31,863 nucleotides of DNA from Spirochaeta sp. (GCA_003454605.1 DMKD01000004.1:1-31863); one strand, 5' to 3'. Shown: positions 14,674 through 30,469, counted from the first letter of the stretch. Translations and numbers: made by a program. Notes: a model not told the origin generated them from the sequence alone.

Positions 14674-14678
14674 AGACT

Positions 14679-14707
14679 ATTATAGCCCACAAGGCTAATA
14701 GCGTAAA
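14679..14707 (-). promoter_or_regulatory. Putative sigma70 promoter and operator of higBA (probably leaderless)
   Basis: Minus strand: TTTACG (14707-14702), 17 nt spacer, TATAAT (14684-14679), 5 nt, ATG. The palindrome TAGCC-N5-GGCTA (14683-14697) overlaps the spacer and -10. Confidence 0.65.
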
Positions 14708-14933
14708 GAGCTAATACACAATCCCCGATGCTGAAATTTATTAAAATTCTAATGTTGTTAGAGAAAAAGAGTGAGAACGTAGGTTACTACGTTTTATTCT
14801 TCCGGCACTAAATTCAACTCTATTATCGTTCAAGTGCATAAGGATGTAAAAAACTAATCCACAGGTTCAGGAATTGTTTAGCCTCTTAGACAGATTTCGG
14901 TGCAAGGAAGTTTTTTAACGTCATCAATCCGGT

Positions 14934-16340: not shown

Positions 16341-18462
16341 TAATCTGCTGTTTATTTCTGACAGGAAGAGATAGAAGGATAGTCGTACCTGACCCGACTG
16401 TACTCTTTACATCAATTGTTCCTGAATATTTACTAATTATACCGTAGACAATCGATAGTCCCAGCCCGGTTCCTTTCCCGTTAGTTCTTGTCGTAAAAAA
16501 GGGATCAAATACATGCTGCATTGTTTCTTCATCCATCCCGACGCCGCTGTCAATTATCTGTACATGAATCATACTATAATCATCACTCAATCGTGTTGTT
16601 ACAAGTATTTTGCCCATGTCGGCAATCGCATAGATTGAATTTTGAACAAGATTTATTACAACCTGCTTCAACTCACTTCTGCTTATTACCACAAAGGGTA
16701 GATTCTCCTGAAAATCTGAAGACAGATCAATTCGCTTTTCCTTTACTAATCCATAATTTATAAGTTTCAGCACATCACTGATAACAGTATTAACCTCGCT
16801 GCCTTCACTTTCACCCTGTTCAGCGGCTGAAAAGTTCAGAAGGTCGCTTACAATCTTTGCAATCCTTCGGGTCTCCTGTTCAATCCAGCTTAATGCTGTT
16901 CGTGTTTCATCATCATTATCTTCATCAAGCAGATTCTGCACATTAGTCAGAATAGAACTTAAGGGATTATTGATCTCATGTGAAACTCCGGCTGAGAGCA
17001 TGCTCAATGAAGCAAGTTTCTCAGCCTGAAAAATCTTTTCTTCCAGTTCATATTTCTGACCGACATCATCTATTTCCAGAACACATTTCCGTTCTCCAAC
17101 CTGCGCATTTGTGAACAGCAGATAAAGCTTAATCTCAAAGACAAATCCCTCAGTCCGCTTAATTTTAGACCATGAATCTATCCTGCCTAAAATTACATCC
17201 TCAATTTTTCCTAAAACTGCTTTATCAATGACCTCGATAGATATGTTACTGATTTTCTCATTTAATAACAGAGCTGCATCACATTGAAATAACTCAAGGA
17301 AAAAGCTGTTTACTTTTTCGATTGAAAGGTCATTATCAACAACAAGAATTCCAGCTCGAAGAGAATAGATGATTTTTTCATTATAATCTTTCAGGAATGT
17401 AATCTCATGAATAAAATTCTCCATGGATTTTTTATTCTGATCAATCTGCCAGGCCATATCATTGAAACCTCGAAATAGTTCACCGACCTCACTCCCGGAC
17501 TTATAGTCAACCTTAACCTTGTAATCCCCACCACGAATACCTTCCATAGCATAAAGAAGGCTGCTGATAGGTTTTGTAATATTGCGAGAGAAGTAGAAAC
17601 TTAAAATGATTGCAAAAAAGCCAACAGTGAATAAAGCTATGAATAATGCGTTGTAAATCTGTCCTAAAATTGATAAAAACGGCTCATTTGACATCAGTAA
17701 TATAAGATAAAACTTATCTTCAGCATCTCCCCTTCTCAGCATTCCCAGTTCCTGAAACGACACATTATAATTGCCTGCATTTAAAGCTAGATCATATACT
17801 TCTTTATAGGGAACATCAGGGAGTTTAGACGTCTGAAGAATATTAAATATGCCGTCATTGAGCAGACGACCGGTACGCAGATCATTTTCAGAAACAAAAT
17901 AAACAGCTGTACGCTCAGGCAGCCCCGAACCCCGGTAAAATTTTTCATCGATCTTTTTTAAAATAAAAACATCCAGATACTCATTATGCCCGAGATTACC
18001 TGTCATATATACATTTTTGCCAATTTCGCGCAGTTCCAGATATGGATGATCTTTAACGGATTCAAGCCCTTCCATTTCGGCAGATGGAAATAATTCACTG
18101 CCTGATGAAAAATACTCGTTCTTCCCATCCTCTTTTATTCTCATTATGATAGAATCGATATCAGACAGCAATTGAATTTCTTTGAACCAGGCATCAAATT
18201 CTGTCTTTGAAAATTTCATTTGATGGTCTTCAATCAGTTTTATATATTGGTTATCGTTATTAATCCTGATTGTTGTCTTCCAAAGTGTACGAAGCCAGGA
18301 ATTATACTCTTCATATACAGCGCCTGACTCCATGCTGAGTTCCACTCTGACATCATTTTCGTTACTTCTGGTTATAATACCGGTAACAAGCATGATGGTC
18401 AGAGCGGACTGGAAAACAACAACTCCAATGAAAAAGAGCAGCGCTCTTATGGAAAGTTTCAT
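16324..18462 (-). CDS. Membrane sensor histidine kinase (2 TM, extracytoplasmic domain, HAMP, PAS, HisKA, HATPase)
   Basis: Two TM segments, HAMP (ITKPISSL...EVGELFRGFNDM), PAS-like (AGILVVDNDLSIEKVN), H-box SHEINNPL, NLVQNSIYA, DSGVGM, FDPFFTT and GTGLGL. Overlaps the regulator start. Confidence 0.93.
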   Translation of the reverse strand: MKLSIRALLFFIGVVVFQSALTIMLVTGIITRSNENDVRVELSMESGAVYEEYNSWLRTLWKTTIRINNDNQYIKLIEDHQMKFSKTEFDAWFKEIQLLSDIDSIIMRIKEDGKNEYFSSGSELFPSAEMEGLESVKDHPYLELREIGKNVYMTGNLGHNEYLDVFILKKIDEKFYRGSGLPERTAVYFVSENDLRTGRLLNDGIFNILQTSKLPDVPYKEVYDLALNAGNYNVSFQELGMLRRGDAEDKFYLILLMSNEPFLSILGQIYNALFIALFTVGFFAIILSFYFSRNITKPISSLLYAMEGIRGGDYKVKVDYKSGSEVGELFRGFNDMAWQIDQNKKSMENFIHEITFLKDYNEKIIYSLRAGILVVDNDLSIEKVNSFFLELFQCDAALLLNEKISNISIEVIDKAVLGKIEDVILGRIDSWSKIKRTEGFVFEIKLYLLFTNAQVGERKCVLEIDDVGQKYELEEKIFQAEKLASLSMLSAGVSHEINNPLSSILTNVQNLLDEDNDDETRTALSWIEQETRRIAKIVSDLLNFSAAEQGESEGSEVNTVISDVLKLINYGLVKEKRIDLSSDFQENLPFVVISRSELKQVVINLVQNSIYAIADMGKILVTTRLSDDYSMIHVQIIDSGVGMDEETMQHVFDPFFTTRTNGKGTGLGLSIVYGIISKYSGTIDVKSTVGSGTTILLSLPVRNKQQISEQGM

Positions 18463-18474
18463 TCCGGCATTATA

Positions 18475-19224
18475 CTAACTAACCGCCTCAGAACCAACGA
18501 TCAAACTAACCACTTCCTCGGTTGTAGTATCTTTTTTTACTAAATTTCCAACAAGTTCACCCCGGCGCATTACACAAATTCTGTCGGCAACCTCGAAAAC
18601 ATCATGCATCTGGTGACTTATCAGGATAATTGCTAATCCATGGTCTTTAAGTGAATTCACCAAATCAAGAACCTGCTTCTGCTGAGCAACTCCGAGGGCT
18701 GCAGTAGGTTCATCCATTATGAGGACCTTCGCGTTCCAATAGATTGAGCGAGAGATTGCAACAGCCTGTCGCTGCCCACCCGAAAGGGTTCTAACGTTGT
18801 TCCTCAGCGAAGGAATCTTAATATCCAGCTTCTTCAGGATACCAACCGCCTCATCATACATATAGCTGTGGTCAAGAACATGAAAGATCCCAAGTCTTTT
18901 CTTTGTTTTTTCTCTACCGAGAAAAATATTTGAATATACATTGAGATTCTCAGCTAAAGCCAAATCCTGATAAATTGTTTCGATTCCTGCTGCGAGTGCA
19001 TCTATTGGGGTATGAATTTTGACAACCTCTCCATTATATAGGATGTCACCGCCATCATTGGGATATACTCCGGAAATCATTTTTATAAGTGTTGATTTTC
19101 CAGCTCCATTGTCTCCAAGCAGTGCAACGACCTCTCCTGGACTCACACCGAAGTTCACTTTATTCACGGCGACTAAACCACCGAATCTCTTTGTTATATC
19201 TCTTGTTTCAATTAAGTAACTCAT
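18475..19224 (-). CDS. Sugar ABC transporter ATP-binding protein (single NBD)
   Basis: Walker A GDNGAGKS, signature LSGGQRQ, Walker B LIMDEPT, H-loop ISH. Confidence 0.93.
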   Translation of the reverse strand: MSYLIETRDITKRFGGLVAVNKVNFGVSPGEVVALLGDNGAGKSTLIKMISGVYPNDGGDILYNGEVVKIHTPIDALAAGIETIYQDLALAENLNVYSNIFLGREKTKKRLGIFHVLDHSYMYDEAVGILKKLDIKIPSLRNNVRTLSGGQRQAVAISRSIYWNAKVLIMDEPTAALGVAQQKQVLDLVNSLKDHGLAIILISHQMHDVFEVADRICVMRRGELVGNLVKKDTTTEEVVSLIVGSEAVS

Positions 19225-19228
19225 TTAT

Positions 19229-20293
19229 CTACTCCTTGTAAGTTGTTTCTGGAAAAACCCGATCAATTAATACTGCCAATATCAAAATTACTCCAACCAT
19301 AATATATTTGTCGAAGGTTGGAATTCCCAATATTCTCAAACCGGTTTCCAGAACCGCAATAATCACAGCACCCAGGATAGTTCTCCATACCGTTCCTTTT
19401 CCTCCTGTTAAACAAGCGCCGCCGATTACTACGGCTGCAATAGAATCAAGAAGAAGCGAAGCTCCTGCATCAGCCTTTCCGGTCACATATTTAAGCATGT
19501 AAATTACACCGGCTGAAGAGGCAAGTAATGAAGAAAGCATATATATTTTAGTTATATGATTTTTTACGTTTATTCCTGATCTTATAGCCGAGTCTTCATT
19601 ACCGCCTATAGCGTAGGTATGAATACCAAAAACAGTTTTACTCAAGACAAAGGCAAAGATAGCAACTATAATTAATGTGATTACAACAACGTTCGGAAAC
19701 AATTCGAAGACCTTTACACCCCTGGCGACTTCAGGGCGTGCAAAAAATGAGAATCCGCCGCCCTTAACAAAGTATAGAAAATGCCCATTTCCAATAACAT
19801 TTGCAAGATGAGGAAGATTCTTGGCTGCGCCTTCAGTGAGAAGTAGCTCTGATACACCATGACTGATACCGAGCATCGAGAATGTTGCGATAAACGGCGG
19901 TACATTCAAACGTGAAACAAGCAAACCGTTAATCAGTCCCGGAATAAGACCCAAAACAAGGGTGATGATAATCCCGAAGAAAATACCCCAGAATTCCGGC
20001 ATTCCTGATGCTGAGAAATATACAATGAGTTTGGTTGCGATGATTGTAGAAAGGCCCATCACATAGCCTACAGATAAATCAATCCCTCCGGTTATTATTA
20101 CAAATAACTCTGCAACTGCCATCAGCATAACTGCTGTCCCGAAGAAAAGAACTATCTGAAATACATTTACTGTGAAAAATCCCTTAGCTGTCAAGCCGAA
20201 GAATATAATCTCAGCAACGAAGAAAATTACAGCCCACTGCTTACCTATTTTCAACAGCAGATCCTTATTTTTTTGCGTCATAAGACTTTGCAT
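19229..20293 (-). CDS. Sugar ABC transporter permease (RbsC/AraH family)
   Basis: IITGGIDLSVG, VPPFIATFSM, YAIGGNEDSAIRSGINV and IAAVVIGG, with multiple TM helices. Confidence 0.92.
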   Translation of the reverse strand: MQSLMTQKNKDLLLKIGKQWAVIFFVAEIIFFGLTAKGFFTVNVFQIVLFFGTAVMLMAVAELFVIITGGIDLSVGYVMGLSTIIATKLIVYFSASGMPEFWGIFFGIIITLVLGLIPGLINGLLVSRLNVPPFIATFSMLGISHGVSELLLTEGAAKNLPHLANVIGNGHFLYFVKGGGFSFFARPEVARGVKVFELFPNVVVITLIIVAIFAFVLSKTVFGIHTYAIGGNEDSAIRSGINVKNHITKIYMLSSLLASSAGVIYMLKYVTGKADAGASLLLDSIAAVVIGGACLTGGKGTVWRTILGAVIIAVLETGLRILGIPTFDKYIMVGVILILAVLIDRVFPETTYKE

Positions 20294-20314
20294 TATCTAA
20301 ACTCCTTCGACTAT

Positions 20315-21391
20315 TTAAAAGAGATCAGGAAATAACTGATCAATCACTATTGCAAGAATAAGCAGAAACCCAACAGCAATGTATCGATAAAATGGTTCAA
20401 CACCGGATATAAGTAGTCCGTTTTCAAGAACAGCTATCAATAAAACTCCGATGATAGAAGCCAAAAGCCGTCCCTTACCGCCCATTAAGCTCGCTCCGCC
20501 AATAACAACTGCCGCAACACCAAATAACTCATACATGGCTCCAAATGTAGTAAAATTTCCTATTCCAGTCTGGAAAACATTGAAGACACCCGCCATACCG
20601 GCTATAAACGCAGACAGCATATATATTTTAATAATATGCTTCTGAACATTTATACCTGAACGAATAGCTGCATCTTCATTGCCGCCTATAGCATAGGTAT
20701 GCTGGCCGAAGGTTGTATTGTTTAGAATATGTCTTAATACGAATATAACAATAAAAATGATTATGAATGAGATTGGTATCAACCTCAGGTATTCTCTTAT
20801 TTGGTTGTTTGCTACCCCTTCAGGTAAACTGAAAAAATTTATCCCGGACCCTTTTTTAAAATAAATTGTGTAACCGTTTCCGATTTTAGTGAGAGCATCG
20901 GGAAGTGACGCAACAGGAAAGCCCTCGCATATCTTCAGAGCAATGCCGTTTGTAATACCCCACATTCCGAGAGTCGCAATAAACGGAGGGACCTTGAACT
21001 TAGCGATCATAATGCCGCTTATTAATCCTGGGATAAGAGATACAACAAGGGCAATTACAGAACCGATCAGTATACAAACACCAACACTGTAATTACCGCT
21101 ATTGAATAATGTCTGAATAATCTTGCCTGCCGTAACAGACGAAAGCCCCATCACAAAACCAACCGAGAGGTCGATTCCCCCGCTTATTATTACGAACGTT
21201 TCTGCTGCAGCCATGAACATGGCAATAACAGAAAGATGAACAATATTCTGGAAATTTACGATACTCAGGAACCCCTTTCCAGTGAAACTAAACAAAACTA
21301 CGAAGAAAATAAGAAAACAAAATGCCCAGTTTCTGGCAATAGCTTTCAAAAGTCTGGATTGTTCAATTATAAGATTTAAGTTACCTTTCAA
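20315..21391 (-). CDS. Sugar ABC transporter permease (RbsC/AraH family), paralog of 19229..20293
   Basis: IISGGIDLSVG, VPPFIATLGM, YAIGGNEDAAIRSGINV and AAVVIGGASLMGGKG. Confidence 0.92.
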   Translation of the reverse strand: MKGNLNLIIEQSRLLKAIARNWAFCFLIFFVVLFSFTGKGFLSIVNFQNIVHLSVIAMFMAAAETFVIISGGIDLSVGFVMGLSSVTAGKIIQTLFNSGNYSVGVCILIGSVIALVVSLIPGLISGIMIAKFKVPPFIATLGMWGITNGIALKICEGFPVASLPDALTKIGNGYTIYFKKGSGINFFSLPEGVANNQIREYLRLIPISFIIIFIVIFVLRHILNNTTFGQHTYAIGGNEDAAIRSGINVQKHIIKIYMLSAFIAGMAGVFNVFQTGIGNFTTFGAMYELFGVAAVVIGGASLMGGKGRLLASIIGVLLIAVLENGLLISGVEPFYRYIAVGFLLILAIVIDQLFPDLF

Positions 21392-21505: not shown

Positions 21506-22498
21506 CTATTTGTAGATAAACTTATCCATCTCAGGATCGTTTACATTACCTTCATTGAAAAACTCAAAGCCAGGAATAACCTTAGCAGGAATCTTTGTGC
21601 CGGCAGAAAGGAATTTGTATCCCCATTCAACAGCAAGTGAACCAATTTCGTATGGTTTCTGTGCAAGACATAGATCAATCTGTCCCTTCTTAAGTGCATT
21701 GATGATATCTACTGAAGCATCCCATGTAGCAAGTTTCACAGCGCCTGAAAGACCTGCGTTAACTACAGCCTGGTATGCACCCTGTGAAGAATAAAGATTT
21801 GTTCCAAATATACCTACGATATCGGGATCTTTCTGAAGAGCACCAAGAGTCTGATCAGTAGCTTTCTGCTGAACATCCATGTTGTAGTCAATACCTACGA
21901 GTTCCATGTCGGGGAAAGCTTCGAGACCTTCTTTGAATCCTTTAACACGACCCATTACAGAAGATACATCGGGATTAGTAGAGTTAATATATACCTTTCC
22001 TTTTTCTCCAACCATTTCAGCGAGGTGTGCAGCCATCTCTCGTCCACCCTTTTCATTATCTGAACCAATATAGCTCAATGGGAAGGAATAGTCGCTGTCT
22101 ACTGAGTAATCGCCGTTGCCGAGGAAGGTGTCAACTGTAATAATCTCTATACCCTGATCATAAAGCTTCTTAAGCGGGCTAATCAGTGCATCAATAGCTG
22201 TCGGTGCAATAAGAATCATATCGATTCCACCCTGAGCTACAGTAGCTTCGAGAATCGGAACCTGTACTTCAGGACCCCAGGCTTTCGGAAATTCTGCAAC
22301 AATTATGTTAACACCAAGTTCCGCACCCTTTTCTCTGATACCTTTTTCCATCATGTAGTAGAATGGATCTGCTACACCAGGCATGAAGAGAATAGTTATC
22401 CCATCGTCTTCTGCTTCCTGCTGCCCACCGGCAAACAGCTGTGCGCTCATGCTGAATGTGATCAATAGAACCATTACAAGCAATAAACCTTTTTTCAT
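21506..22498 (-). CDS. Sugar ABC transporter substrate-binding protein (RbsB-like, Peripla_BP_4 type)
   Basis: Signal peptide then FAGGQQE. Motifs DPFYYMMEKG, ILIAP, ITVD, IGSDNEKGG, R.KGF, IFGTN, ATWD and AQKPYEIG. SD AGGAGA upstream. Confidence 0.9.
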   Translation of the reverse strand: MKKGLLLVMVLLITFSMSAQLFAGGQQEAEDDGITILFMPGVADPFYYMMEKGIREKGAELGVNIIVAEFPKAWGPEVQVPILEATVAQGGIDMILIAPTAIDALISPLKKLYDQGIEIITVDTFLGNGDYSVDSDYSFPLSYIGSDNEKGGREMAAHLAEMVGEKGKVYINSTNPDVSSVMGRVKGFKEGLEAFPDMELVGIDYNMDVQQKATDQTLGALQKDPDIVGIFGTNLYSSQGAYQAVVNAGLSGAVKLATWDASVDIINALKKGQIDLCLAQKPYEIGSLAVEWGYKFLSAGTKIPAKVIPGFEFFNEGNVNDPEMDKFIYK

Positions 22499-22536
22499 TT
22501 TTATCTCCTTTGATTATTTAATACTGTCCTTTATAT

Positions 22537-22553
22537 TGCAATCAATGTGCCAA
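22537..22553 (-). promoter_or_regulatory. Sigma54 (-24/-12) promoter of the ABC transporter / two-component operon
   Basis: Minus strand TTGGCAC-ATTGA-TTGCA is a consensus TGGCAC-N5-TTGCW with GG-N10-GC spacing, about 40 nt upstream of the ATG. A sigma54 activator is encoded in the same operon. Confidence 0.85.
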
Positions 22554-22597
22554 GTTTCAAAAAAAGTGATATATTTGTTAAATCAGTTAATAAATAA

Positions 22598-22635
22598 TAA
22601 AAACCTGTAAAACATAGCGGTTTTACAGGTTTTTA
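22598..22635 (-). terminator. Hairpin terminator after the ROK/PfkB/aldolase operon
   Basis: Perfect 16 bp arms TAAAAACCTGTAAAAC / GTTTTACAGGTTTTTA with a 6 nt loop, T-rich on the minus-strand exit. Confidence 0.65.
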
Positions 22636-22677
22636 TACGATAATCTTCATCTCAAACTTAAGACTTTCCGTAAAAGT

Positions 22678-22716
22678 GGTTACTCAGGTATCCGCCTACT
22701 GGATACTCAGGTACCC
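22678..22716. promoter_or_regulatory. Tandem pseudo-palindromes, candidate upstream activator sequences for the NtrC-family protein
   Basis: GGTTAC-TCAG-GTATCC (22678-22693) and GGATAC-TCAG-GTACCC (22701-22716) are 23 bp apart and about 125-165 bp upstream of the -24 box. Confidence 0.6.
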
Positions 22717-22719
22717 ATT

Positions 22720-23574
22720 TTATGCCTTACCATTGGCCATACATTTCCTTATCCAGCCTTTAACAACTTCTTTCACTTCATCCATTGCAGGTCTTGCAAT
22801 ATCGAGGGTAAACTGGTTGTCTCCAAGTTCCATGAGGTCCTTTCTGAAACTGTTCATCAGCGTACAATGAATTATAGTCCCTACATTAATCTTGTTTATT
22901 CCGCCCTTAATAGCCATTCTTATGTCGGCTTCAGGGATACCTGAACCACCGTGAAGGACAAGAGGGACATCTACTGCCTCATTTATTTCTTCAAGCCGGT
23001 CAAAATGAATTTCAGGCTTGCCTTCGTAAAAACCGTGCGCAGTACCTATTCCAACTGCAAGGTTATCCAATCCGGTTTCGTTAACAAACTTAACCGCATC
23101 ATCGACCTGTGCCAGAAAATCTTTGCCCTCGAAACCGCCCTCATATCCGTTTCCTTTAATCTTGCCAATTTCAGCCTCAACACACACATTCTTTGCTTTT
23201 GCATGCTCTACAACGGCCTTAACTGCCTTGATATTATCTTCGAGCGAAAGGGTTGAAGCGTCAATCATTACTGATGGATAGCCAAGATCTATCGCGGCAT
23301 TACAGATGGATACCTCGTTAGAATGATCAAGGTGATGGATGAGCGGGATACCGGCTCTTTTCATAGCAGCGGCACCCATTGCGGCATTAATTTCAGGGGT
23401 CATCATATTGAACACAAGGCTGTGAGATGCCACCATAATAGGTGCTTTTTCTTCCTCTGCTGCTTCAATTATTGCCAAAAAATCCCAGGCACAAGAGTAA
23501 TTGAAGGAGGGTACTGCATATCCTTCCTTATTCGCCTTTGCCAGCATATCCCGTAAAAAATCTCCGTTATTCAT
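22720..23574 (-). CDS. Class II fructose/tagatose-bisphosphate aldolase family protein
   Basis: HLDH zinc motif, SVMIDAS, VEAEIG, GTAHG, LVLHGGSG and KINVGT. Confidence 0.92.
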   Translation of the reverse strand: MNNGDFLRDMLAKANKEGYAVPSFNYSCAWDFLAIIEAAEEEKAPIMVASHSLVFNMMTPEINAAMGAAAMKRAGIPLIHHLDHSNEVSICNAAIDLGYPSVMIDASTLSLEDNIKAVKAVVEHAKAKNVCVEAEIGKIKGNGYEGGFEGKDFLAQVDDAVKFVNETGLDNLAVGIGTAHGFYEGKPEIHFDRLEEINEAVDVPLVLHGGSGIPEADIRMAIKGGINKINVGTIIHCTLMNSFRKDLMELGDNQFTLDIARPAMDEVKEVVKGWIRKCMANGKA

Positions 23575-24508
23575 TTCTTTTCTCCATTGTCTTAATTGAC
23601 AAAATAGTTTTATTAAAATCTACAACTCCTGTTGTAGAACCAATCGCCTGTACGCAATGCGCAGCCGCCGCCTGGCCAAGTTCAGCGCATTCATGAATAT
23701 CCATACTCTTATCAAGCCCTGTCAGGAAACCGGCCACAAAGGAATCACCTGCACCTGTAGTATCAACGACATCAACATTGAAAGAAGGTATCACAGCCTT
23801 AAGCTCTGAATTTCTGATAAATACCCCATCCACGCCCATTTTTATTACAACATTTCCGACACCCTTTTTTAAAAGGATCTGCGCCATGTCTTCAACCTTA
23901 TCCACACCGGTTATTTCTTTTGCTTCTCCAATACTTGGAATAAAATAATCGAGGTGCTGTAAACATGGTTCAATAATCGTCATCCATTGACCGGTTGTAT
24001 CATAGCTGACATCCATGGCTGTAGTTTTTCCGCGCCTCTGAGCTTCTTTAAAAAGAACTGCAGCACCTTTACCGTCAAAACCAGGAAGCATAAAAGTACC
24101 ACCTACAAAAACGATTTCGTAGGCATCAAGGATTGAAAGATTGATATCATCAATTGAAAATTCATTATTTGCTCCGCCTTCATATAAAAAGTTTCGGGAA
24201 CCATTCTCATGAATAAGAACAATAACAGATGAGCTTGAACCTTCATCATCAATTTTTAAACCGTCGACCCTTAAACCTGCCGATTGCATTTTATCCAGAA
24301 GGAATTTACCTTTATCGTCATTTCCAATCCTGCCGGAAAACCCGGTTGCAACACCGAGCTTGTTGCAAATCATTGCAACATTCAAAGAGTCTCCCCCGTT
24401 GCTGAATGAAATTGTATCTACTGCTGTCGTATCTACCTCAAGACTGTTATCCTTAACAGGCTTAACCAGAATATCAAATACAATTTGCCCTACACATAAA
24501 ATACTCAT
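23567..24508 (-). CDS. PfkB-family carbohydrate kinase
   Basis: GGDSLNVA N-terminal motif, GRIGNDDKG, IKMGVDG and VDTTGAGDSF. Overlaps the aldolase start. Confidence 0.92.
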   Translation of the reverse strand: MSILCVGQIVFDILVKPVKDNSLEVDTTAVDTISFSNGGDSLNVAMICNKLGVATGFSGRIGNDDKGKFLLDKMQSAGLRVDGLKIDDEGSSSSVIVLIHENGSRNFLYEGGANNEFSIDDINLSILDAYEIVFVGGTFMLPGFDGKGAAVLFKEAQRRGKTTAMDVSYDTTGQWMTIIEPCLQHLDYFIPSIGEAKEITGVDKVEDMAQILLKKGVGNVVIKMGVDGVFIRNSELKAVIPSFNVDVVDTTGAGDSFVAGFLTGLDKSMDIHECAELGQAAAAHCVQAIGSTTGVVDFNKTILSIKTMEKRNE

Positions 24509-24538
24509 TATTAAGCAAACTCCTCATCCACAGCTGGT

Positions 24539-25708
24539 TTAGAAGTCCATCAGCTCACCGGAAAAAAACTTTTCCAGTACAGTTGTAGCACTTGACACCG
24601 AATGCTGGTTGTAGTCCTTTTCTGAAACAAGGACATCGATGGTCTTGATCGTTCTTGTAATTGATCTCTGATTTATAAACTGACGCAATTCAGTGATTAA
24701 CAGATATGGTTCAAAAACAACCTCACCGCTTAGAATTACAGCTTCCAGCTCAAATAGATTCATCACATTCACAATTCCAACACCCAAATAACGGGCTTCC
24801 CGTCTGATTATGTCAACAAAGGCATCATCATCCTTTGATTTAATTACAATATCCTGCCAACTCTTTACTTCAGGGCAGGCATCCTCGAGGCTTTCCATGA
24901 TTGCTTCAATTGATGCAAAACTTTCTATACAGCCGACATTTCCACACCGGCACTGCTTGCCGTTAAGATCAATTGACATATGCCCGAACTCACCGCCGAA
25001 ACCATCTACCCCCCTGTAGATCTTGTTATCTATTACTATTCCGCATCCAATTCCGTTATTAGTAATCTCAATCTGAATAAAATTCTTATACTTACGGCCC
25101 TTTCCATAATTCTTCTCAACTAGTGTTGCCGCAACCGCATCACGATCAAGGAAAATCGGGAAGGCAAATTCCTGCTTAAGCTTCGCAACAACGGGCGCAC
25201 CCTGCCATAACTCAAGCCTGGGAGGATTAAGAATCACACCGCCATAGATATCAACCGGTCCCGGTGAGGAAATCCCGATACCAAGGACCTTTTGCTCACG
25301 AACATTCCCCGCAATAATTCTTTTAAGTGAAACAACGATCTTCTCTATGCCTTCATCAGAATTTTTCAGTTCAGAAAAATCCAGTCTTTCTTCTTCTATG
25401 ACAGTCCCATTAATATCTGAAAGACCTACAAGACAGTGGTCATATCGAATATTAACGCCAAGAGCATAAAGGTAGTCAATATTCATTCCCAGCTTAACAG
25501 GCTTTCTTCCACTGGCCGATTCTTTCACACCAGTTTCAATTACGATCCCCTGATTTATCAGATCATCAACAATGCCTGAGATTGAAGCTCGTGTAAGACC
25601 GGTCTTTCTTGCGAGATCAGCGCGTGAAATTTGCTTTCCGTGAATGATATTTAAGATGTTTTTTCGATTATCCTGCTTCATATAAACAGCATTTTTTGGT
25701 TTTTTCAT
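24539..25708 (-). CDS. ROK-family transcriptional repressor (NagC/XylR-like)
   Basis: N-terminal HTH (ISRADLARKTGLTRASISGIVDDL, GRKP), ROK domain with GEFGH and zinc motif CRCGNVGCIE. Confidence 0.92.
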   Translation of the reverse strand: MKKPKNAVYMKQDNRKNILNIIHGKQISRADLARKTGLTRASISGIVDDLINQGIVIETGVKESASGRKPVKLGMNIDYLYALGVNIRYDHCLVGLSDINGTVIEEERLDFSELKNSDEGIEKIVVSLKRIIAGNVREQKVLGIGISSPGPVDIYGGVILNPPRLELWQGAPVVAKLKQEFAFPIFLDRDAVAATLVEKNYGKGRKYKNFIQIEITNNGIGCGIVIDNKIYRGVDGFGGEFGHMSIDLNGKQCRCGNVGCIESFASIEAIMESLEDACPEVKSWQDIVIKSKDDDAFVDIIRREARYLGVGIVNVMNLFELEAVILSGEVVFEPYLLITELRQFINQRSITRTIKTIDVLVSEKDYNQHSVSSATTVLEKFFSGELMDF

Positions 25709-25802
25709 GTTAATTCATTTAACTATATAACTGAAGCACCATTAGATCAAGTAGAACTTCTGTTTTTAATCCACCTTCAAGTAACAAAAAATGTCGATTT
25801 TC

Positions 25803-25852
25803 GAATATTCTCTTGAGAATATTCATTATAGTTTGGTAATCTGTTTAATTAT
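25803..25852. promoter_or_regulatory. Candidate operator sites in the divergent promoter region
   Basis: Perfect inverted repeat GAATATTCTC-TT-GAGAATATTC (25803-25824). ATAGTT-N13-AATTAT (25828-25852) has the 25 bp geometry of XylR-type ROK operators. Confidence 0.45.
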
Positions 25853-25905
25853 ATATTTGACATAGGGCAGAATATCCCATAGAATCGACATAAAAGGGGT
25901 CCCCC

Positions 25906-27807
25906 ATGTATAAACTCAGTCAAATCATCCAAAAATATAGAAACGCACGTATAGCTGTCATTGGAGATCTATGTCTTGATATGTATTACTTTCTCTCTGA
26001 GGAAAAAAGTGAAATTTCAGTTGAAACCGGACATCGCACCCAATCCGTTTCAAAATTTGCCAGCGAAGCAGGAGGCGCAGGCAATGTAGCGATCAATTTA
26101 AAAGCCCTTGGTGCGCTGAGTGTTGATGCCTACGGGGTCATTGGTGCAGATCCTTTCGGATTAACCCTGGAGTCCATCCTTTCCAAAGAAGGAGTAAACT
26201 GTGACAATGTACTAATCCAGGAAAACAATTGGAATACACATGTCTACCACAAGTTCTTTAGAAACAGAATAGAAGAACCACGCTGCGATATAGGTAATTT
26301 CAATAAAGTATCAGATACTACCATTCTGAGTCTTCTAAATAATTTTGAATCAAAACTGTCGTCATATGATGCTATAATCATAAATGAGCAGATAGCCCAT
26401 GGTTATCATAATACAAATTTTCAGGTCAAACTCTCTGCTATAATTGAACAGAACAAAAGCAAATATTTATGGATAACCGACTGCCGCCATTTAAACAGCA
26501 GATATAACCATACGATACGAAAGCTTAATATTCATGAAGCAAGGGCTATATTCACAGAGGCAAACGTTAAGGGCCGCCCGCTATCCGGAAATATTGAATT
26601 ACTGAACTGGCTCTATGCATACTGGAAAAAGCCGTTGGTTATAACCTTGGGTGAAGACGGTGCAATTGCCATTGACGACAAGGGCAACGTTCATGAAATT
26701 AACGGTGTAAATATAATAGGACAAATGGATACAGTTGGAGCTGGAGATGCCTTTCTTTCAGCCTTTGCACTAAGCCTTGCAACCGGCGGCGAGATGAGTG
26801 ATGCCCTGAACACAGGCAACCTCGCAGCTGCCGTATCAGTCACAAAGCTGTTCCAAACCGGACACCCTTCAGTTGATGAGATTATAGAAATGGGAAAATC
26901 TACCGATTACCGGTACAATCCGGAAATAGCCGCTGACATAAGAAAAGCCGAGTTCCTTGATGGCACATCAATAGAGAAAGTTGGTATTAAGAAAACCGGC
27001 TATCCACGGGTAGCAATCTTCGATCATGACGGAACAATCTCAACCCTGCGGCATGGCTGGGAACCGATAATGAAAGAGGTCTGCATGAATGCAATCCTCG
27101 GCAGCTCGATAGATCTCGCAAGCATAAAAGAATTAGACAAGGTCAGCAATGCGGTTGATGATATGATAGAAAAAACGACCGGGGTTCAGACAATAATTCA
27201 AATGCACCATTTAAGTGAAATGGTGAGGTCCTTTGGCCTGGTACCTGAAAATGAAGTTCTAAGCCCTATTGAATATAAGAAAATATATAATGACAAGCTG
27301 CTTGATATGGTTTCAGGTCGTGTCGAATTATTTAAAAAAGGACTGCTCAGTGTCGATGACGTAACCATGAAAGGGGCCTTAACATTTCTTGAACACCTGA
27401 AAAAAAGAGGGGTTCTCATCTATCTTGCAAGCGGGACAGACATGTCAGATGTACAGAGGGAAGCTTCCATCTTAGGATATGATAGCTATTTCAATGGAGG
27501 GATCTTCGGCTCTGTCGGAAACACCTCAAGCGATCCGAAACGAGGAGTGATTGAGACCATCATTAAAAGCCTTCCCGATGATATCAATGCCGAAGACTGC
27601 TATGTTTTCGGTGACGGACCAGTAGAGATGAGAGAGGCTGCAAAGAGAGAGTTCACACGAATTGGAATGGTAAGCGATGAGAGACAAAGATGGGGAATTA
27701 ATAACGAAAAGCGATCAAGGTTGATTCTCGGCGGAGCTCAGGTCCTCATACCAGACTTTTCCTGGATTCCGAAACTCGCTGCTGACCTTGGATGGGAGGA
27801 TAAATAA
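25906..27807 (+). CDS. Fusion of an HldE/RfaE domain I-like PfkB kinase and a HAD-superfamily phosphatase
   Basis: N-domain: IAVIGDLCLD, GGAGNVAINL, ITLGEDG, DTVGAGDAF. C-domain: HAD motif I FDHDGT, motif II LASGT, motif III Lys (DPKRG), motif IV FGDGPVE. Confidence 0.8.
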   Translation: MYKLSQIIQKYRNARIAVIGDLCLDMYYFLSEEKSEISVETGHRTQSVSKFASEAGGAGNVAINLKALGALSVDAYGVIGADPFGLTLESILSKEGVNCDNVLIQENNWNTHVYHKFFRNRIEEPRCDIGNFNKVSDTTILSLLNNFESKLSSYDAIIINEQIAHGYHNTNFQVKLSAIIEQNKSKYLWITDCRHLNSRYNHTIRKLNIHEARAIFTEANVKGRPLSGNIELLNWLYAYWKKPLVITLGEDGAIAIDDKGNVHEINGVNIIGQMDTVGAGDAFLSAFALSLATGGEMSDALNTGNLAAAVSVTKLFQTGHPSVDEIIEMGKSTDYRYNPEIAADIRKAEFLDGTSIEKVGIKKTGYPRVAIFDHDGTISTLRHGWEPIMKEVCMNAILGSSIDLASIKELDKVSNAVDDMIEKTTGVQTIIQMHHLSEMVRSFGLVPENEVLSPIEYKKIYNDKLLDMVSGRVELFKKGLLSVDDVTMKGALTFLEHLKKRGVLIYLASGTDMSDVQREASILGYDSYFNGGIFGSVGNTSSDPKRGVIETIIKSLPDDINAEDCYVFGDGPVEMREAAKREFTRIGMVSDERQRWGINNEKRSRLILGGAQVLIPDFSWIPKLAADLGWEDK

Positions 27808-28898
27808 TGGATTATTTCGACAGATACAAAATGAACTTTTACCCACTCAAGTCCAGAATGAGCAAGGTTGACATCGTAACATCAAGCATTAACCCCGACA
27901 GTAAGCCCGAAACGATCTCCAAAGAGGTTGAGCAAAGAATTAAAACTATCGCAGGTGAAATTAAAGAAGCAAAAGCTAATAATAGATCGGTCATGCTAAC
28001 CTTTGGTGCACATACAATCAAAAACGGATTAGGCGAGGTCCTCTCAACAATGGCCGAAGAGGGCTGGATAACTCATCTGGCAACAAATGGGGCAGGTGTT
28101 ATCCATGACTGGGAATTTGCATATCAGGGCCTCAGCTCTGAAGACGTCAGAGACAATGCCCGGGAAGGCAAATTCGGGACCTGGGAAGAAACAGGCTTAT
28201 TTATCAACCTAGCCCTGATGGATGGAGCATACCGCGGATTAGGATATGGAGAATCCGTTGGAAGCCTGATATCAATGGAAGGAATCGAGGTCCCAACCGA
28301 AGAAGAGTTAATGTCTATTGAGACACCCCTTTGGAAGAGGGCTGCTGCTGCTGATTATCTTGAACTAATTCAGGCCGAAAGAATAAAACCGGGCCGGCTT
28401 GATGTTAAGCATCCCTTCTCAAAATACAGCATTCAGGCAAGGGCTTTTGAAAATAAAACCCCATTTACCAGTCATCCGATGTTCGGGCATGACATCATCT
28501 ATACACACAGAGCCAACAGAGGTGCTGCAGTCGGCCGATGCGCCGAGAGAGATTTCCTCTCTTTTGTAGACTCTGTATCCAGACTTGAAGGCGGGGTCTA
28601 CCTCTCAATTGGCTCTGCGGTGATGTCACCGATGATATTTGAGAAATCAATCTCGATGGCCCGCAATACCGCAGTTCAGGAAGACAGGGAAATACGCGAC
28701 TGTTCCATACATGTGGTTGATCTTCAGGAAGAGACCTGGGACTGGAACGAGGGAGAGCCGCCGATGGATAATCCAGCCTACTATCTTAGATTCATGAAGA
28801 CATTTAACAGAATGGGTTGTAGAATTGATTACACAGCCATAGACAACAGAGATTTTCTTCTACATCTATATCAGGAACTGAAAAAAGGGAAGAGTTAA
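27807..28898 (+). CDS. Hypothetical protein, probably deoxyhypusine-synthase-like (DHS-like) fold
   Basis: Motifs FGAHTIKNGL, THLATNGAGVIHDWE, SEDV, GKFGTWEETG and LSIGSAVMSPMIFEK resemble an uncharacterised DHS-like family as I recall it (unverified). Start and stop overlap both neighbours (TAATG). Confidence 0.55.
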   Translation: MDYFDRYKMNFYPLKSRMSKVDIVTSSINPDSKPETISKEVEQRIKTIAGEIKEAKANNRSVMLTFGAHTIKNGLGEVLSTMAEEGWITHLATNGAGVIHDWEFAYQGLSSEDVRDNAREGKFGTWEETGLFINLALMDGAYRGLGYGESVGSLISMEGIEVPTEEELMSIETPLWKRAAAADYLELIQAERIKPGRLDVKHPFSKYSIQARAFENKTPFTSHPMFGHDIIYTHRANRGAAVGRCAERDFLSFVDSVSRLEGGVYLSIGSAVMSPMIFEKSISMARNTAVQEDREIRDCSIHVVDLQEETWDWNEGEPPMDNPAYYLRFMKTFNRMGCRIDYTAIDNRDFLLHLYQELKKGKS

Positions 28899-29548
28899 TG
28901 AATAAACAGAACAAAACCAGATTCTATATAAATGAATTAGTAGGCCGGTATCCTTTACTTGAAGACTGCCGCGGCTCGATTGAACAGGCTGCAGAATTGC
29001 TAATCAAAACGTCAGAAAATGAAGGTAAATTCCTCATCTGTGGAAATGGCGGCAGTTCAGCTGATGCTGACCACATAGTCGGCGAATTAATGAAGGGCTT
29101 CATTCTCCCAAGACCTCTTACCGCCATGCAGAAGAAATCTCTAAAAGAAACCGATACCGAATTGGGCTCTCTGATGAGTGAACGGCTGCAGCGCGGGATA
29201 CCGGCAATATCACTGAGCTCCCAAACCGCATTAAACACCGCCTTTTTAAACGATGTAGATCCGGCCCTCCTTTTTGCCCAGCAGGTCATGGGTTTCGGCA
29301 AACGCGGTGATACATTATGGGGTTTATCTACATCGGGAAACTCAAAAAATATCGTGGCTGCTGCAGTCGCAGCAAAGTCCAGAGGCTTAAAAACCCTTGC
29401 AATGACCGGAAAGAGCAGCAGCCGGCTTTCTGAAATATGTGATGTATGCATACAGGTCAATGAAACTGAAACATACAAGGTTCAGGAACTCCACCTCCCC
29501 GTCTATCACAGCTTATGCCTGATTATCGAAGACTTCTTCTTTGCATGA
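28898..29548 (+). CDS. SIS-domain sugar-phosphate isomerase, GmhA (phosphoheptose isomerase)-like
   Basis: CGNGGSSADADHIVGEL, STSGNSKNI, MTG and VQELHLPVYHSLC. The His/Glu/Gln/His metal-site residues of GmhA appear to be present. Confidence 0.85.
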   Translation: MNKQNKTRFYINELVGRYPLLEDCRGSIEQAAELLIKTSENEGKFLICGNGGSSADADHIVGELMKGFILPRPLTAMQKKSLKETDTELGSLMSERLQRGIPAISLSSQTALNTAFLNDVDPALLFAQQVMGFGKRGDTLWGLSTSGNSKNIVAAAVAAKSRGLKTLAMTGKSSSRLSEICDVCIQVNETETYKVQELHLPVYHSLCLIIEDFFFA

Positions 29549-30469
29549 AAGGGCTATGCTGAGACTGGCAAAATCCCCAATCTGCTCCCCAAGGGCTGCC
29601 GGAATTACCGAACAGACCTTTCGTGCAGCTGAAAGAGTCTCCATCTCAATCACTGCCTGCGCAGCAGGCGAAAGATACTCTCCGCAACGTGTAAATATTG
29701 AACCGATAACAATGCGCTCAGGATTCAGCAGATCAATAAGGATGGATAGCCCCATCCCCAGATGACGGCCGCTGTTTTCAAGGATTTCCAGGGCAACAGC
29801 ATCACCTTTTGATGCAGCCGCACAAACATCGCGGGCTGTAATATCATTTCCCGGAGGGAGAATGGGCGAGGATTTATGCTTCAGCACCGCTTCGGCCTGC
29901 CTGGCAATACCGCCGCCGCTGCAGAAGCCCTCAAAAGAGCCGGCTTTCCCATAACCCATGGGACCGTCATTCTTCAGCCTGATGTGACCTGCCTCACCTG
30001 CCATATCATTTGTCCCCGAATAGAGCCTGCCGTCAAGAATGAGACCCGCACCCAGGCCGGTTCCAAAAGTCAGGAAAATCATATTTGAACAACCCTTTCC
30101 CGCACCCCATTTCCATTCTGCAAGAGCACAGGCATTGGCATCGTTCTGAATTGCAGCAGGAAGCCCGAATCTAGCCTGCAGCAGACTAACAATCTCAACG
30201 TTATCCCAGCCGGGAAGATTCGGCGGGGAAAGTATAACCCCGTCCTTACTGTTTAGGGGACCGCCACAGCTGATACCAATACATTTGACATTTTTTCCTT
30301 CCGGTCCGTCTATTATTTTCTGGACATTCGCTGATATCTCCATCAGAGTCTGCTCCGGACCTCCGGATGTGGGAAATTCAATTCTTTCCAGAACTTCAGG
30401 AGTTTCATTCCCCAGTACTACAGCACACTTCGTACCGCCGATATCAATTCCAATCAATAAGTCACGCAT
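29513..30469 (-). CDS. ROK-family sugar kinase (no HTH)
   Basis: IGIDIGGTK, IGISCGGPL, PPNLPGW, QNDANACALAE, TFGTGLGAG and GEAGH. The 3' end overlaps the convergent GmhA-like gene by 36 nt. Confidence 0.9.
   Translation of the reverse strand: MRDLLIGIDIGGTKCAVVLGNETPEVLERIEFPTSGGPEQTLMEISANVQKIIDGPEGKNVKCIGISCGGPLNSKDGVILSPPNLPGWDNVEIVSLLQARFGLPAAIQNDANACALAEWKWGAGKGCSNMIFLTFGTGLGAGLILDGRLYSGTNDMAGEAGHIRLKNDGPMGYGKAGSFEGFCSGGGIARQAEAVLKHKSSPILPPGNDITARDVCAAASKGDAVALEILENSGRHLGMGLSILIDLLNPERIVIGSIFTRCGEYLSPAAQAVIEMETLSAARKVCSVIPAALGEQIGDFASLSIALSCKEEVFDNQA

What the first reader, a model, noticed from the sequence alone, without database searches (positions are those of the whole stretch)
21506..30469. 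Candidate undescribed sugar catabolic pathway, possibly for a seven-carbon sugar (heptose)
Seen: one locus combines a sugar ABC importer, ROK kinase, GmhA-like isomerase, HldE-like kinase-HAD fusion, an unknown DHS-like protein, a PfkB kinase, a class II aldolase and a ROK repressor. No heptose nucleotidyltransferase (HldC), epimerase (HldD) or heptosyltransferase lies in the window. Established: GmhA reversibly interconverts sedoheptulose-7-P and D-glycero-D-manno-heptose-7-P; HldE-I and GmhB make and trim heptose-1,7-bisP; PFK-type kinases plus class II aldolases can split sedoheptulose-1,7-bisP into DHAP and erythrose-4-P. Inference: the heptose enzymes run catabolically. Import, then ROK kinase (heptose-7-P), GmhA-like (sedoheptulose-7-P), PfkB (bisphosphate) and aldolase would let the cell feed on heptose released from LPS. 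A rare hexose such as allose or altrose is the main alternative.
Basis: partly seen in the sequence, partly recalled or inferred. Interest (0 to 1): 0.75.

Follow-up and report, generated by a model that had tools for sequence, protein, structure and literature searches.

The report
Heptose-pathway-derived sugar catabolic locus
A marine spirochaete has a sugar-uptake locus built from diverged relatives of the enzymes that normally make cell-wall heptose, plus an uncharacterised NAD-fold enzyme; it is probably an undescribed route for consuming a mannose-shaped sugar, most likely a seven-carbon heptose.

Summary
The genes are all there, and the locus is larger than stated: the importer runs down to 18475 and its sigma-54 two-component system to 14934. 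The conserved core is a cassette of four genes: an HldE-like kinase fused to a HAD domain, a GSU2086-family protein with a deoxyhypusine-synthase/ornithine-cyclodeaminase fold, a GmhA-type isomerase and a zinc-less ROK kinase. The cassette-type GSU2086 gene (usually with the kinase::HAD beside it) occurs in at least 593 species genomes of glycan-degrading phyla, with LacI regulators, importers, GH38 alpha-mannosidases and AGE 2-epimerases, never with heptosyltransferases. The window's genome (81% complete) shows no HldC, HldD or GT9, so a catabolic role is well supported. Elsewhere GSU2086 domains are fused to HldC, HldA-like kinases, HAD or GmhA, and in this phylum GSU2086 is enriched in heptosyltransferase-bearing genomes that lack HldD. 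I therefore propose it is a heptose-phosphate 6-epimerase, with the kinase and HAD domains adding and removing a phosphate handle. The PfkB/aldolase pair is not part of the conserved cassette; its nearest characterised relatives are E. coli YdjH/YdjI, which act on higher-carbon sugars. Heptose is the best reading (about 0.45); a mannose-type hexose is the main rival. The scan has met this cassette before on other DNA. I found no paper describing it.

The parts
14934..16340 (-). NtrC-type sigma-54 activator (response regulator)
   Evidence: Response_reg, Sigma54_activat and HTH_8 domains.
16324..18462 (-). Sensor histidine kinase
   Evidence: HAMP, HisKA and HATPase_c domains.
18475..19224 (-). 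ABC ATPase with a single nucleotide-binding domain, 249 aa
   Evidence: ABC_tran, E 4.3e-31.
19229..21391 (-). Two CUT2-type permeases (19229-20293 and 20315-21391)
   Evidence: BPD_transp_2 in both.
21506..22498 (-). Periplasmic monosaccharide-binding protein with a signal peptide and no lipobox Cys
   Evidence: Peripla_BP_4, E 2.2e-45. Closest solved chain is 5dkv at 222 bits. Sequence read.
22597..22636 (-). 17-bp-stem terminator hairpin between the aldolase gene and the SBP gene
22720..23574 (-). Class II ketose-bisphosphate aldolase
   Evidence: PF01116. TIGR00167 subfamily at 231.5 bits against a cut-off of 215.6. 36% identity to E. coli YdjI.
23567..24508 (-). PfkB sugar kinase, YdjH-like
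   Evidence: PF00294. Closest solved chain is YdjH (3h49) at 174.8 bits, 32% identity.
24539..25708 (-). ROK-family regulator (winged helix plus ROK domain)
   Evidence: ROK, MarR_2 and HTH_24 domains; NagC/Mlc-like.
25857..25885 (+). Near-consensus sigma-70 promoter in the divergent intergenic region; both hexamers are conserved in G003
   Evidence: 11 of 12 consensus matches. Alignment with G003.
25906..27807 (+). HldE-domain-I-like kinase fused to a C1-capped HAD phosphatase or mutase domain
   Evidence: PfkB and Hydrolase domains. rfaE_dom_I at 124 bits. HAD-domain model and Foldseek search.
27807..28898 (+). GSU2086-family protein with a DHS/LOR-SDH fold; proposed NAD-dependent sugar-phosphate epimerase
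   Evidence: NF052581 at 305.8 bits. Structure and fold searches.
28898..29548 (+). GmhA-family aldose/ketose phosphate isomerase with a ~25-aa insertion
   Evidence: Matches B. pseudomallei GmhA (2xbl) at E 6e-31. The H..E, Q..H and STSGxS motifs are kept.
29513..30469 (-). Zinc-less ROK sugar kinase, convergent with the isomerase gene and overlapping it by 36 nt
   Evidence: ROK, E 1.8e-57. Sequence read.

Best explanation
The locus is a catabolic system for an imported manno-configured sugar, most likely a heptose: L-glycero-D-manno-heptose and/or D-glycero-D-manno-heptose released from other bacteria's LPS or glycans.

Proposed route (all steps are inferred, none is shown):
1. The CUT2 importer takes up the monosaccharide.
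2. The HldE-like kinase domain puts a phosphate on the anomeric carbon, either of the free sugar or of its 7-phosphate.
3. The GSU2086 enzyme uses a tightly bound NAD to epimerise the phospho-sugar by transient oxidation (L-glycero to D-glycero at C6).
4. The fused HAD domain removes the anomeric phosphate handle.
5. The zinc-less ROK kinase supplies the terminal phosphate.
6. The GmhA-type isomerase converts D-glycero-D-manno-heptose-7-P to sedoheptulose-7-P.
7. In this genus a YdjH-like kinase and a class II aldolase may then split it, via sedoheptulose-1,7-bisphosphate, into DHAP and erythrose-4-P. Alternatively it enters the pentose phosphate pathway directly.

The logic resembles the Leloir pathway without a nucleotide. 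A ROK-family repressor and a sigma-54 two-component system control expression.
For: Catabolic setting:
- The assembly has no GT9, HldC or HldD.
- The family is patchy: 9 of 61 relatives and 11 of 251 genomes in the phylum sample have it.
- The pattern scan matched at least 593 genome stretches encoding relatives across glycan-degrading phyla.
- In 38 loci with full flanks, the neighbours are kinase::HAD 30 (always directly upstream), ROK 19, GmhA-like 18, LacI 17, AGE 16, ABC 10-13 and GH38 5.

Heptose link:
- The isomerase is a true GmhA-family member with catalytic and zinc residues kept.
- The kinase's best family match is HldE domain I.
- GSU2086 domains occur fused to HldC, ARMT1-HldC, kinase-HAD, HAD, SIS and PfkB.
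- GSU2086 lies inside heptose biosynthesis clusters with GT9, GmhA, HldA and HldC.
- The HldC-fused domain is 49-51% identical to the window's protein and groups as sister to the cassette clade, with weak support.

Epimerase idea:
- The fold belongs to enzymes that hold NAD for transient oxidation.
- Among GT9-positive genomes of the phylum sample, GSU2086 is present in 5 of 15 that lack HldD and in 3 of 88 that have it. Fisher p is 0.0015 and is not corrected for relatedness.
- LarC, needed for the nickel-pincer cofactor, was not found in G000 or in the 100%-complete G003.

Kinase and aldolase:
- Among solved structures the PfkB kinase's closest relative is E. coli YdjH. The aldolase is 36% identical to YdjI, although class II FBA/TBP aldolases score higher. 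RefSeq names YdjH and YdjI as an octuluronate kinase and an octuluronate-1-phosphate aldolase.

I found no paper on heptose catabolism.
Against: - No substrate was tested.
- All three 'heptose' matches fall below their equivalog cut-offs.
- The commonest accessory genes (GH38 alpha-mannosidase, AGE-family 2-epimerase/isomerase, aldose 1-epimerase) are known from hexose (mannose) metabolism.
- Cassette-type GSU2086 proteins form their own clade, so their reaction may differ from that of the biosynthetic ones.
- The HldD anticorrelation rests on few lineages. It mainly concerns non-cassette copies, and two genomes (G122, G189) have both genes.
- The role of AGE is unexplained in the heptose scheme.
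- PfkB/aldolase and the CUT2 importer are absent from all 72 anchored loci of other genomes.
- The pair occurs without the cassette in hexitol and ketose clusters.
- The genome has transaldolase-family genes, so the bisphosphate split is not required.
Confidence: 0.45

Rival explanations
1. The cassette handles a hexose of the mannose series (mannose itself or a C2/C3/C4 epimer such as talose or altrose). ROK makes the 6-phosphate. The GmhA-like enzyme acts as a phosphomannose-type isomerase giving a ketohexose-6-P. Kinase::HAD plus GSU2086 perform an ATP-driven epimerisation through a hexose 1-phosphate or 1,6-bisphosphate. PfkB and the aldolase would cleave a ketohexose bisphosphate.
For: - GH38 alpha-mannosidases, AGE-family enzymes, aldose 1-epimerase and a lyxose/mannose-isomerase-type cupin recur beside the cassette.
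- D-glycero-D-manno-heptose is mannose with one extra carbon, so the chemistry transfers directly.
- The isomerase and kinase score below the heptose equivalog cut-offs, and the isomerase has a ~25-aa insertion.
- The HAD domain resembles beta-phosphoglucomutase, a hexose enzyme.
- The aldolase scores as well against tagatose- and fructose-bisphosphate aldolases as against anything else.
Against: - The genome already has a canonical class I mannose-6-P isomerase at 239 bits, so plain mannose needs none of this.
- Free talose and altrose are rare in nature, whereas the cassette is very widespread.
- GSU2086 fusions and clusters elsewhere are with heptose-specific partners such as HldC and GT9.
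- The HldD anticorrelation points to C6 of heptose.
Confidence: 0.3
2. The finding joins two independent systems. The left part (ROK regulator, YdjH-like kinase, class II aldolase, CUT2 importer, two-component system) would be a ketose or hexitol-type utilisation unit. The right part (kinase::HAD, GSU2086, GmhA-like, ROK kinase) would be the widespread cassette. Their adjacency would be a feature of this genus only. This rival concerns the unity of the locus, not the substrate, so it overlaps the other readings.
For: - None of the 72 anchored loci from other genomes has the pair or a CUT2 importer of this type.
- Homologous PfkB-aldolase pairs (44-53% identity for the kinase) sit in clusters with Zn-dehydrogenases, mannitol dehydrogenase, lyxose isomerase or GH2, without the cassette.
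- A strong terminator separates the aldolase gene from the importer genes. An unchecked first-reader note places a separate sigma-54 promoter there.
Against: - The regulator-kinase-aldolase operon is transcribed divergently from the cassette across a 197-bp shared region.
- The whole arrangement is syntenic in G003 at 66-94% protein identity.
- The only other relative with the pair, G041 from a different family, also carries kinase::HAD-GSU2086.
- The cassette here has no importer of its own.
Confidence: 0.3
3. The plus-strand genes are anabolic. They would make or salvage a heptose (or mannose) 1-phosphate for a surface glycan, with the nucleotidyltransferase and glycosyltransferase encoded elsewhere or missing from the incomplete assembly.
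For: - The gene order kinase, GSU2086, gmhA is the same as in the Geobacter hldE-GSU2086-gmhA LPS operon, whose three genes share a Tn-seq phenotype (PMC5585712).
- The assembly is only 81% complete.
Against: - No GT9, HldC or HldD was found in G000.
- The cassette is consistently linked to LacI or ROK repressors, importers, glycosidases and sulfatases.
- The distribution is patchy and accessory, even within the genus.
- Instead of an adenylyltransferase domain the kinase carries a fused capped HAD, which is not of the GmhB type.
Confidence: 0.08

Closest known systems
ADP-L-glycero-beta-D-manno-heptose biosynthesis (GmhA, HldE/HldA, GmhB, HldC, HldD)
   Same: It has a GmhA-family isomerase with the active site kept and an HldE-domain-I-like kinase followed by a HAD phosphohydrolase. 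GSU2086 relatives sit inside such operons or are fused to their enzymes.
   Different: There is no nucleotidyltransferase, HldD or heptosyltransferase. The HAD domain is capped and beta-PGM-like, not GmhB-like. A ROK kinase, an importer and repressors are added. All matches fall below the equivalog cut-offs. The setting is catabolic.
Leloir pathway (GalK, GalT, GalE): logic only
   Same: The proposed scheme activates the sugar at the anomeric carbon, epimerises it with an enzyme-bound NAD, then returns it to a central sugar phosphate.
   Different: No nucleotide sugar is involved, the enzymes are unrelated to GalK/T/E, and the phosphate handle would be removed by a fused phosphatase. This comparison is an inference and was not tested.
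Deoxyhypusine synthase and LOR/SDH-type ornithine cyclodeaminase (AgrE/ArgZ C-terminal domain)
   Same: They share the fold (Z 16-19, 217-264 residues aligned) and a glycine-rich dinucleotide-binding region.
   Different: Sequence identity is 11-21%. The protein is below the Pfam DS threshold. The context is sugar phosphates rather than polyamines or ornithine. No nickel-pincer biosynthesis gene was found in this genus.
E. coli YdjH/YdjI (named in RefSeq as L-glycero-L-galacto-octuluronate kinase and octuluronate-1-phosphate aldolase)
   Same: It is an adjacent pair of a PfkB kinase and a class II aldolase. YdjH is by far the nearest solved relative of the window's kinase (174.8 bits against 97.7 for the next hit). 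From my own knowledge of the Raushel laboratory's 2019 papers, which I could not retrieve, both enzymes prefer 7- to 9-carbon ketoses with a charged terminus.
   Different: Identity is only 32% and 36%. The aldolase scores higher against fructose- and tagatose-bisphosphate aldolases. The other ydj genes (Zn-dehydrogenases, aldo-keto reductase, MFS carriers) are absent.
Beta-phosphoglucomutase and C1-capped HAD sugar-phosphate phosphatases
   Same: The HAD domain has a helical C1 cap and the DxDGT, SGT and GDG motifs. TM-scores to beta-PGM are 0.59 and 0.74.
   Different: It has no sequence-level match to any solved chain and is fused to a kinase. Whether it acts as a phosphatase or a mutase is unknown.

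Membership tests
ADP-heptose biosynthesis pathway | GmhA equivalog (TIGR00441, cut-off 209.45 bits) | tested here: not met
   Scores 138.8 bits, in two stretches split by an insertion. The catalytic and zinc residues and the phosphate loop are nevertheless kept.
ADP-heptose biosynthesis pathway | HldE kinase domain I equivalog (TIGR02198, cut-off 345 bits) | tested here: not met
   Scores 124 bits. It is the best-scoring family and covers the full domain.
ADP-heptose biosynthesis pathway | GmhB-type capless HAD-IIIA phosphatase | tested here: not met
   The HAD-domain model has a helical C1 cap. Its best structural matches are beta-PGM and mannitol-1-P phosphatase types.
ADP-heptose biosynthesis pathway | HldC adenylyltransferase, HldD epimerase and GT9 heptosyltransferase present in the genome | tested here: not met
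   Best HldC-like match is 48 bits against 181.5. Best HldD-like match is 90 bits against 274.6. There is no GT9 match. The assembly is 81% complete.
GSU2086 family (NCBIfam NF052581) | Score over the curated cut-off of 250 bits across the whole model | tested here: met
   Scores 305.8 bits over model positions 2-300 of 301.
Deoxyhypusine synthase (Pfam PF01916) | Score over the gathering threshold of 27 bits | tested here: not met
   Scores 20 bits, on residues 49-107 only. Only the fold is shared.
Nickel-pincer-dependent LOR/SDH ornithine cyclodeaminase (TIGR00300) | Family score over cut-off, and cofactor biosynthesis (LarC) in the genome | tested here: not met
   Scores 21.5 bits against 410.8. 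LarC was not found in G000, G003, G021 or G038.
Class II ketose-bisphosphate aldolase (TIGR00167 subfamily) | Score over 215.6 bits | tested here: met
   Scores 231.5 bits. The fructose- and tagatose-specific equivalogs are not reached (250 against 343, and 245 against 383).
YdjH/YdjI higher-sugar kinase/aldolase system | Orthology-level similarity and the accompanying ydj genes | tested here: inconclusive
   Identity is 32% and 36%. The kinase's best solved relative is YdjH, but the aldolase's is not YdjI. No Zn-dehydrogenase or MFS genes are in the window.
ROK kinase | ROK domain with the CxCGxxGC zinc motif | tested here: not met
   The ROK domain matches at E 1.8e-57 and the DIGGT ATP motif is present, but the cysteine motif is replaced.

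The most novel reading that the evidence does not exclude
The cassette is the first catabolic pathway for LPS-core heptose. The GSU2086 family would be a new, nucleotide-independent, NAD-dependent heptose-phosphate 6-epimerase. It would work between an anomeric kinase and a phosphatase in catabolism, and it would replace HldD in the LPS biosynthesis of Geobacter-type and some spirochaete and archaeal lineages.
Probability: 0.3. Interest if true: 0.85.

Novelty: new variant of a known kind. Interest (0 to 1): 0.7.

Why it matters
Heptose is in the LPS core of most Gram-negative bacteria, so it is a large pool of carbon in sediments and guts. Yet my full-text searches found no route for consuming it.

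The cassette is present in hundreds of species of Spirochaetota, Bacteroidota, Planctomycetota, Verrucomicrobiota, Lentisphaerota and others. It contains an enzyme family (GSU2086) with thousands of members and no assigned reaction.

This window is a useful entry point for two reasons:
- The cassette is paired with a monosaccharide-type binding protein that can be screened for its ligand.
- It is paired with a kinase and aldolase that would complete a path to central metabolism.

If GSU2086 replaces HldD, annotation of LPS biosynthesis in many genomes would change.

Tried and rejected
- Locus retrieval with the broad family alignments A1 and A2 failed because no stretch was conserved enough. 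The narrower alignment A3 worked.
- A perfect 22-bp palindrome at 25803-25824 looked like an operator. It is unique in the window and is not conserved in the syntenic G003 locus, so I do not claim it.
- Nickel-pincer cofactor use was suggested by a weak TIGR00300 match and by an earlier scan note. LarC was not found in G000, G003, G021 or G038, and in G031 and G040 it lies on other contigs.
- Plain mannose catabolism through the GmhA-like enzyme is weakened by a canonical ManA in the genome.
- The PfkB/aldolase step is not needed for lack of transaldolase, because two TAL_FSA genes are present.
- Literature searches for heptose catabolism, utilisation or salvage, heptosidase, DHS-like plus heptose, and 5DKV found nothing relevant.
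- The YdjH and YdjI papers could not be retrieved by DOI.
- For expression evidence, only the source marine metagenome holds the DNA and there is no RNA run.
- The flanks of the G041 kinase-aldolase contig have no Pfam domain, and the contig could not be joined to the cassette contig.
- No complex prediction was run, because I make no binding claim.

Full report
**Anatomy**

The window is contig C324 of a marine-metagenome assembly: 3.35 Mb, 449 contigs, 81% complete. Its best protein hits are spirochaetes.

On the minus strand there are two units.
- The first unit holds a ROK regulator with a winged helix (24539-25708), a PfkB kinase (23567-24508) and a class II aldolase (22720-23574). It ends in a 17-bp-stem terminator (22597-22636).
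- The second unit holds a periplasmic binding protein (21506-22498), two CUT2 permeases, a single-domain ABC ATPase, a histidine kinase and an NtrC-type activator, running down to 14934.

A near-consensus promoter (25857-25885) drives three genes divergently on the plus strand. Their stop and start codons overlap by one base.
- A 633-aa PfkB::HAD fusion.
- A 363-aa protein.
- A 216-aa SIS protein.

A ROK kinase (29513-30469) converges on them and overlaps the SIS gene by 36 nt.

**What the proteins are**

- **SIS protein.** It is a GmhA-family isomerase. It aligns to B. pseudomallei GmhA at E 6e-31 and keeps the His/Glu and Gln/His active-site and zinc residues and the STSGxS phosphate loop. 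It has a ~25-aa insertion and scores below the equivalog cut-off.
- **Kinase domain.** Its best family is HldE domain I, at 124 bits against a cut-off of 345.
- **HAD domain.** It has intact DxDGT, SGT and GDG motifs but no sequence match to any solved chain. Its model (pLDDT 91.9) is a C1-capped HAD closest to beta-phosphoglucomutase and sugar-phosphate phosphatases. It is not the capless GmhB type.
- **363-aa protein.** It belongs to NCBIfam NF052581, the 'GSU2086 family' (305.8 bits against a cut-off of 250). Its model (pLDDT 96.6) matches the ornithine-cyclodeaminase domain of AgrE (Z 19.3), a LOR/SDH protein (Z 17.6) and deoxyhypusine synthases (Z 16-17), well above sirtuins (Z about 10). 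It fails the Pfam DS threshold. These relatives hold a dinucleotide cofactor for transient oxidation.
- **ROK kinase.** It lacks the usual cysteine zinc motif.

**Catabolic, not LPS-building**

- The assembly has no GT9 heptosyltransferase, no HldC and no HldD above cut-off. The window's GmhA-like gene is the only one.
- The GSU2086 gene is accessory. It is present in 9 of 61 relatives (1 of 5 other species of the genus) and in 11 of 251 genomes sampled across the phylum.
- A pattern search found at least 593 genome stretches encoding close relatives. They come from Sphaerochaeta, Treponema, Prolixibacteraceae, Draconibacterium, Victivallales, Kiritimatiellae, Planctomycetota, Verrucomicrobiota, Hydrogenedentota and others.

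I called ORFs in the best 80 loci and clustered them. In the 73 loci (72 retrieved loci plus the window) with a clean anchor gene, the kinase::HAD gene lies directly upstream on the same strand in 54. Among the 38 loci with at least 6 kb on both sides, the counts are:

| Neighbour | Loci (of 38) |
|---|---|
| kinase::HAD | 30 |
| ROK | 19 |
| GmhA-like | 18 |
| LacI | 17 |
| AGE-family 2-epimerase (directly downstream) | 16 |
| CUT1 ABC parts | 10-13 |
| metallo-beta-lactamase-fold protein | 8 |
| GH38 alpha-mannosidase | 5 |
| 6-phosphogluconate dehydrogenase | 4 |

Individual loci add sulfatases, URO-D-like proteins and aldose 1-epimerase. This is the signature of a sugar-utilisation cassette fed by varying upstream glycan-processing genes.

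**Link to heptose**

- In Geobacter sulfurreducens the family's founding gene lies between hldE and gmhA, and all three share a Tn-seq phenotype (PMC5585712).
- Among cluster representatives I found GSU2086 domains fused to kinase-HAD, HldC, an ARMT1 phosphatase plus HldC, HAD, SIS and PfkB.
- A Pacearchaeota contig carries GT9-NUDIX, GmhA, a PfkB kinase and an HldC::GSU2086 fusion in a row.
- A spirochaete-phylum genome has GT2, a GmhB-like HAD, GSU2086, HldC and GmhA together.
- In a family tree the cassette-type proteins form one clade (support 100/98). The HldC fusions are its sister group, with weak support. A separate 'short' clade holds the other fusions.

Every known step of the heptose pathway thus appears as a partner. 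This suggests GSU2086 supplies a further step.

**A test of the epimerase idea**

If that step is the C6 epimerisation normally done by HldD, GSU2086 should be enriched where HldD is missing. In the same 251-genome phylum sample, 103 genomes have GT9 and 102 have HldD above cut-off.
- Of the 15 GT9-positive genomes without HldD, 5 have GSU2086.
- Of the 88 GT9-positive genomes with HldD, 3 have GSU2086, and 2 of those 3 are cassette-type copies.

Fisher p is 0.0015. It is 0.0002 if only non-cassette copies are counted. These genomes are related, the events are few, and two genomes carry both genes, so this is suggestive only.

LarC was not found in G000 or in the complete, syntenic G003. A nickel-pincer cofactor is therefore unlikely here, and NAD(P) is the default.

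**Proposed mechanism (inferred)**

The fused kinase and phosphatase make sense if they bracket the GSU2086 reaction.
1. An anomeric phosphate is added.
2. The phospho-sugar is epimerised by transient oxidation.
3. The handle is removed.
4. The ROK kinase and the GmhA-type isomerase take the D-glycero-D-manno product to sedoheptulose-7-P.

This gives every core gene a role, fits the recurrent gene order (kinase::HAD, GSU2086, then ROK and the isomerase), and explains why LPS-derived L-glycero-D-manno-heptose would need more than ROK plus GmhA. Which hydroxyls are phosphorylated, and in what order, is not known.

**The PfkB kinase, the aldolase and the importer**

These are not part of the conserved cassette.
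- They are absent from all 72 anchored loci of other genomes.
- Among 61 relatives the pair occurs only in G003 (syntenic, 76% and 89% identity) and in G041. G041 also has kinase::HAD-GSU2086, but on another short contig.
- Homologous pairs elsewhere sit with Zn-dehydrogenases, mannitol dehydrogenase, lyxose isomerase or GH2.

The kinase's closest solved relative, by a wide margin, is E. coli YdjH (174.8 bits, 32% identity). The aldolase is 36% identical to YdjI. RefSeq names these two an octuluronate kinase and an octuluronate-1-phosphate aldolase. From memory, both prefer 7- to 9-carbon ketoses with a charged end.

Against this, the aldolase scores at least as well against fructose- and tagatose-bisphosphate aldolases, and the genome has transaldolase-family genes. 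The binding protein's nearest solved relative is 5dkv. I recall that entry as a tagatose complex but could not verify it.

**Rivals**

- A mannose-series hexose remains a serious alternative because of the GH38, AGE and mutarotase neighbours. The genome's canonical ManA argues against plain mannose.
- The two halves of the locus may be functionally separate.
- An anabolic role is unlikely.

**Standing**

The scan has reported this cassette several times on other DNA, with similar readings. I found no paper describing it.

This window adds four things:
- A monosaccharide importer and a possible downstream kinase/aldolase.
- The classification of the HAD domain.
- The negative result for the nickel-pincer cofactor in this genus.
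- The anticorrelation with HldD.

Noticed in passing
window 18475-19224: The CUT2-type importer has a single-domain ABC ATPase of 249 aa. From my own knowledge, this transporter class usually has a fused two-domain ATPase of about 500 aa.
   Followed up: no
window 25803-25824: A perfect 22-bp palindrome (10-nt arms, 2-nt spacer) lies upstream of the cassette promoter. It is unique in the window but is deleted or not conserved in the syntenic G003 locus.
   Followed up: yes
L002 (G000:C194:1490-1705) and about 20 relatives: A roughly 403-aa ORF matches only positions 42-113 of the GSU2086 model (about 36 bits) and recurs in many spirochaete genomes. It may be a LOR/SDH-type ornithine-cyclodeaminase-like protein.
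   Followed up: no
L064:3815-8099 and 13838-14944; L042:8308-9570 and 17147-18142: Arrays of four to five URO-D-family paralogues flank the cassette in some genomes. They could be methyl-sugar demethylase or methyltransferase components.
   Followed up: no
L063:6530-8014 and 15868-20403: In a Sphaerochaetaceae genome the cassette sits with two sulfatases and two tandem ROK plus GmhA-like pairs. This suggests sulfated-sugar input and shows that the ROK-isomerase pair is a module of its own.
   Followed up: no
L092, L093, L095, L122 (Treponema MAGs): 6-phosphogluconate dehydrogenase lies directly upstream of kinase::HAD-GSU2086. A conserved 341-aa protein with no Pfam domain follows.
   Followed up: partly
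L057:1770-2870; L060:6226-7350 (family f54 genomes): GSU2086 genes lie outside any sugar cluster, next to ArgJ or a PLP enzyme. The host genomes have GT9 heptosyltransferases, and two of the three lack HldD.
   Followed up: partly
L051:5048-11405 (Pacearchaeota): An archaeal DPANN contig carries a GT9::NUDIX fusion, GmhA, a PfkB kinase, an HldC::GSU2086 fusion and a PMT_2 glycosyltransferase in one row. It looks like a compact heptose glycosylation system.
   Followed up: partly
window 30557-31861: A 5'-nucleotidase/UshA-like gene (Metallophos plus 5_nucleotid_C) may run past the end of the window: besides the ATG at 31831, its frame stays open to the window's last bases. I saw no evident link to the sugar locus.
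   Followed up: no
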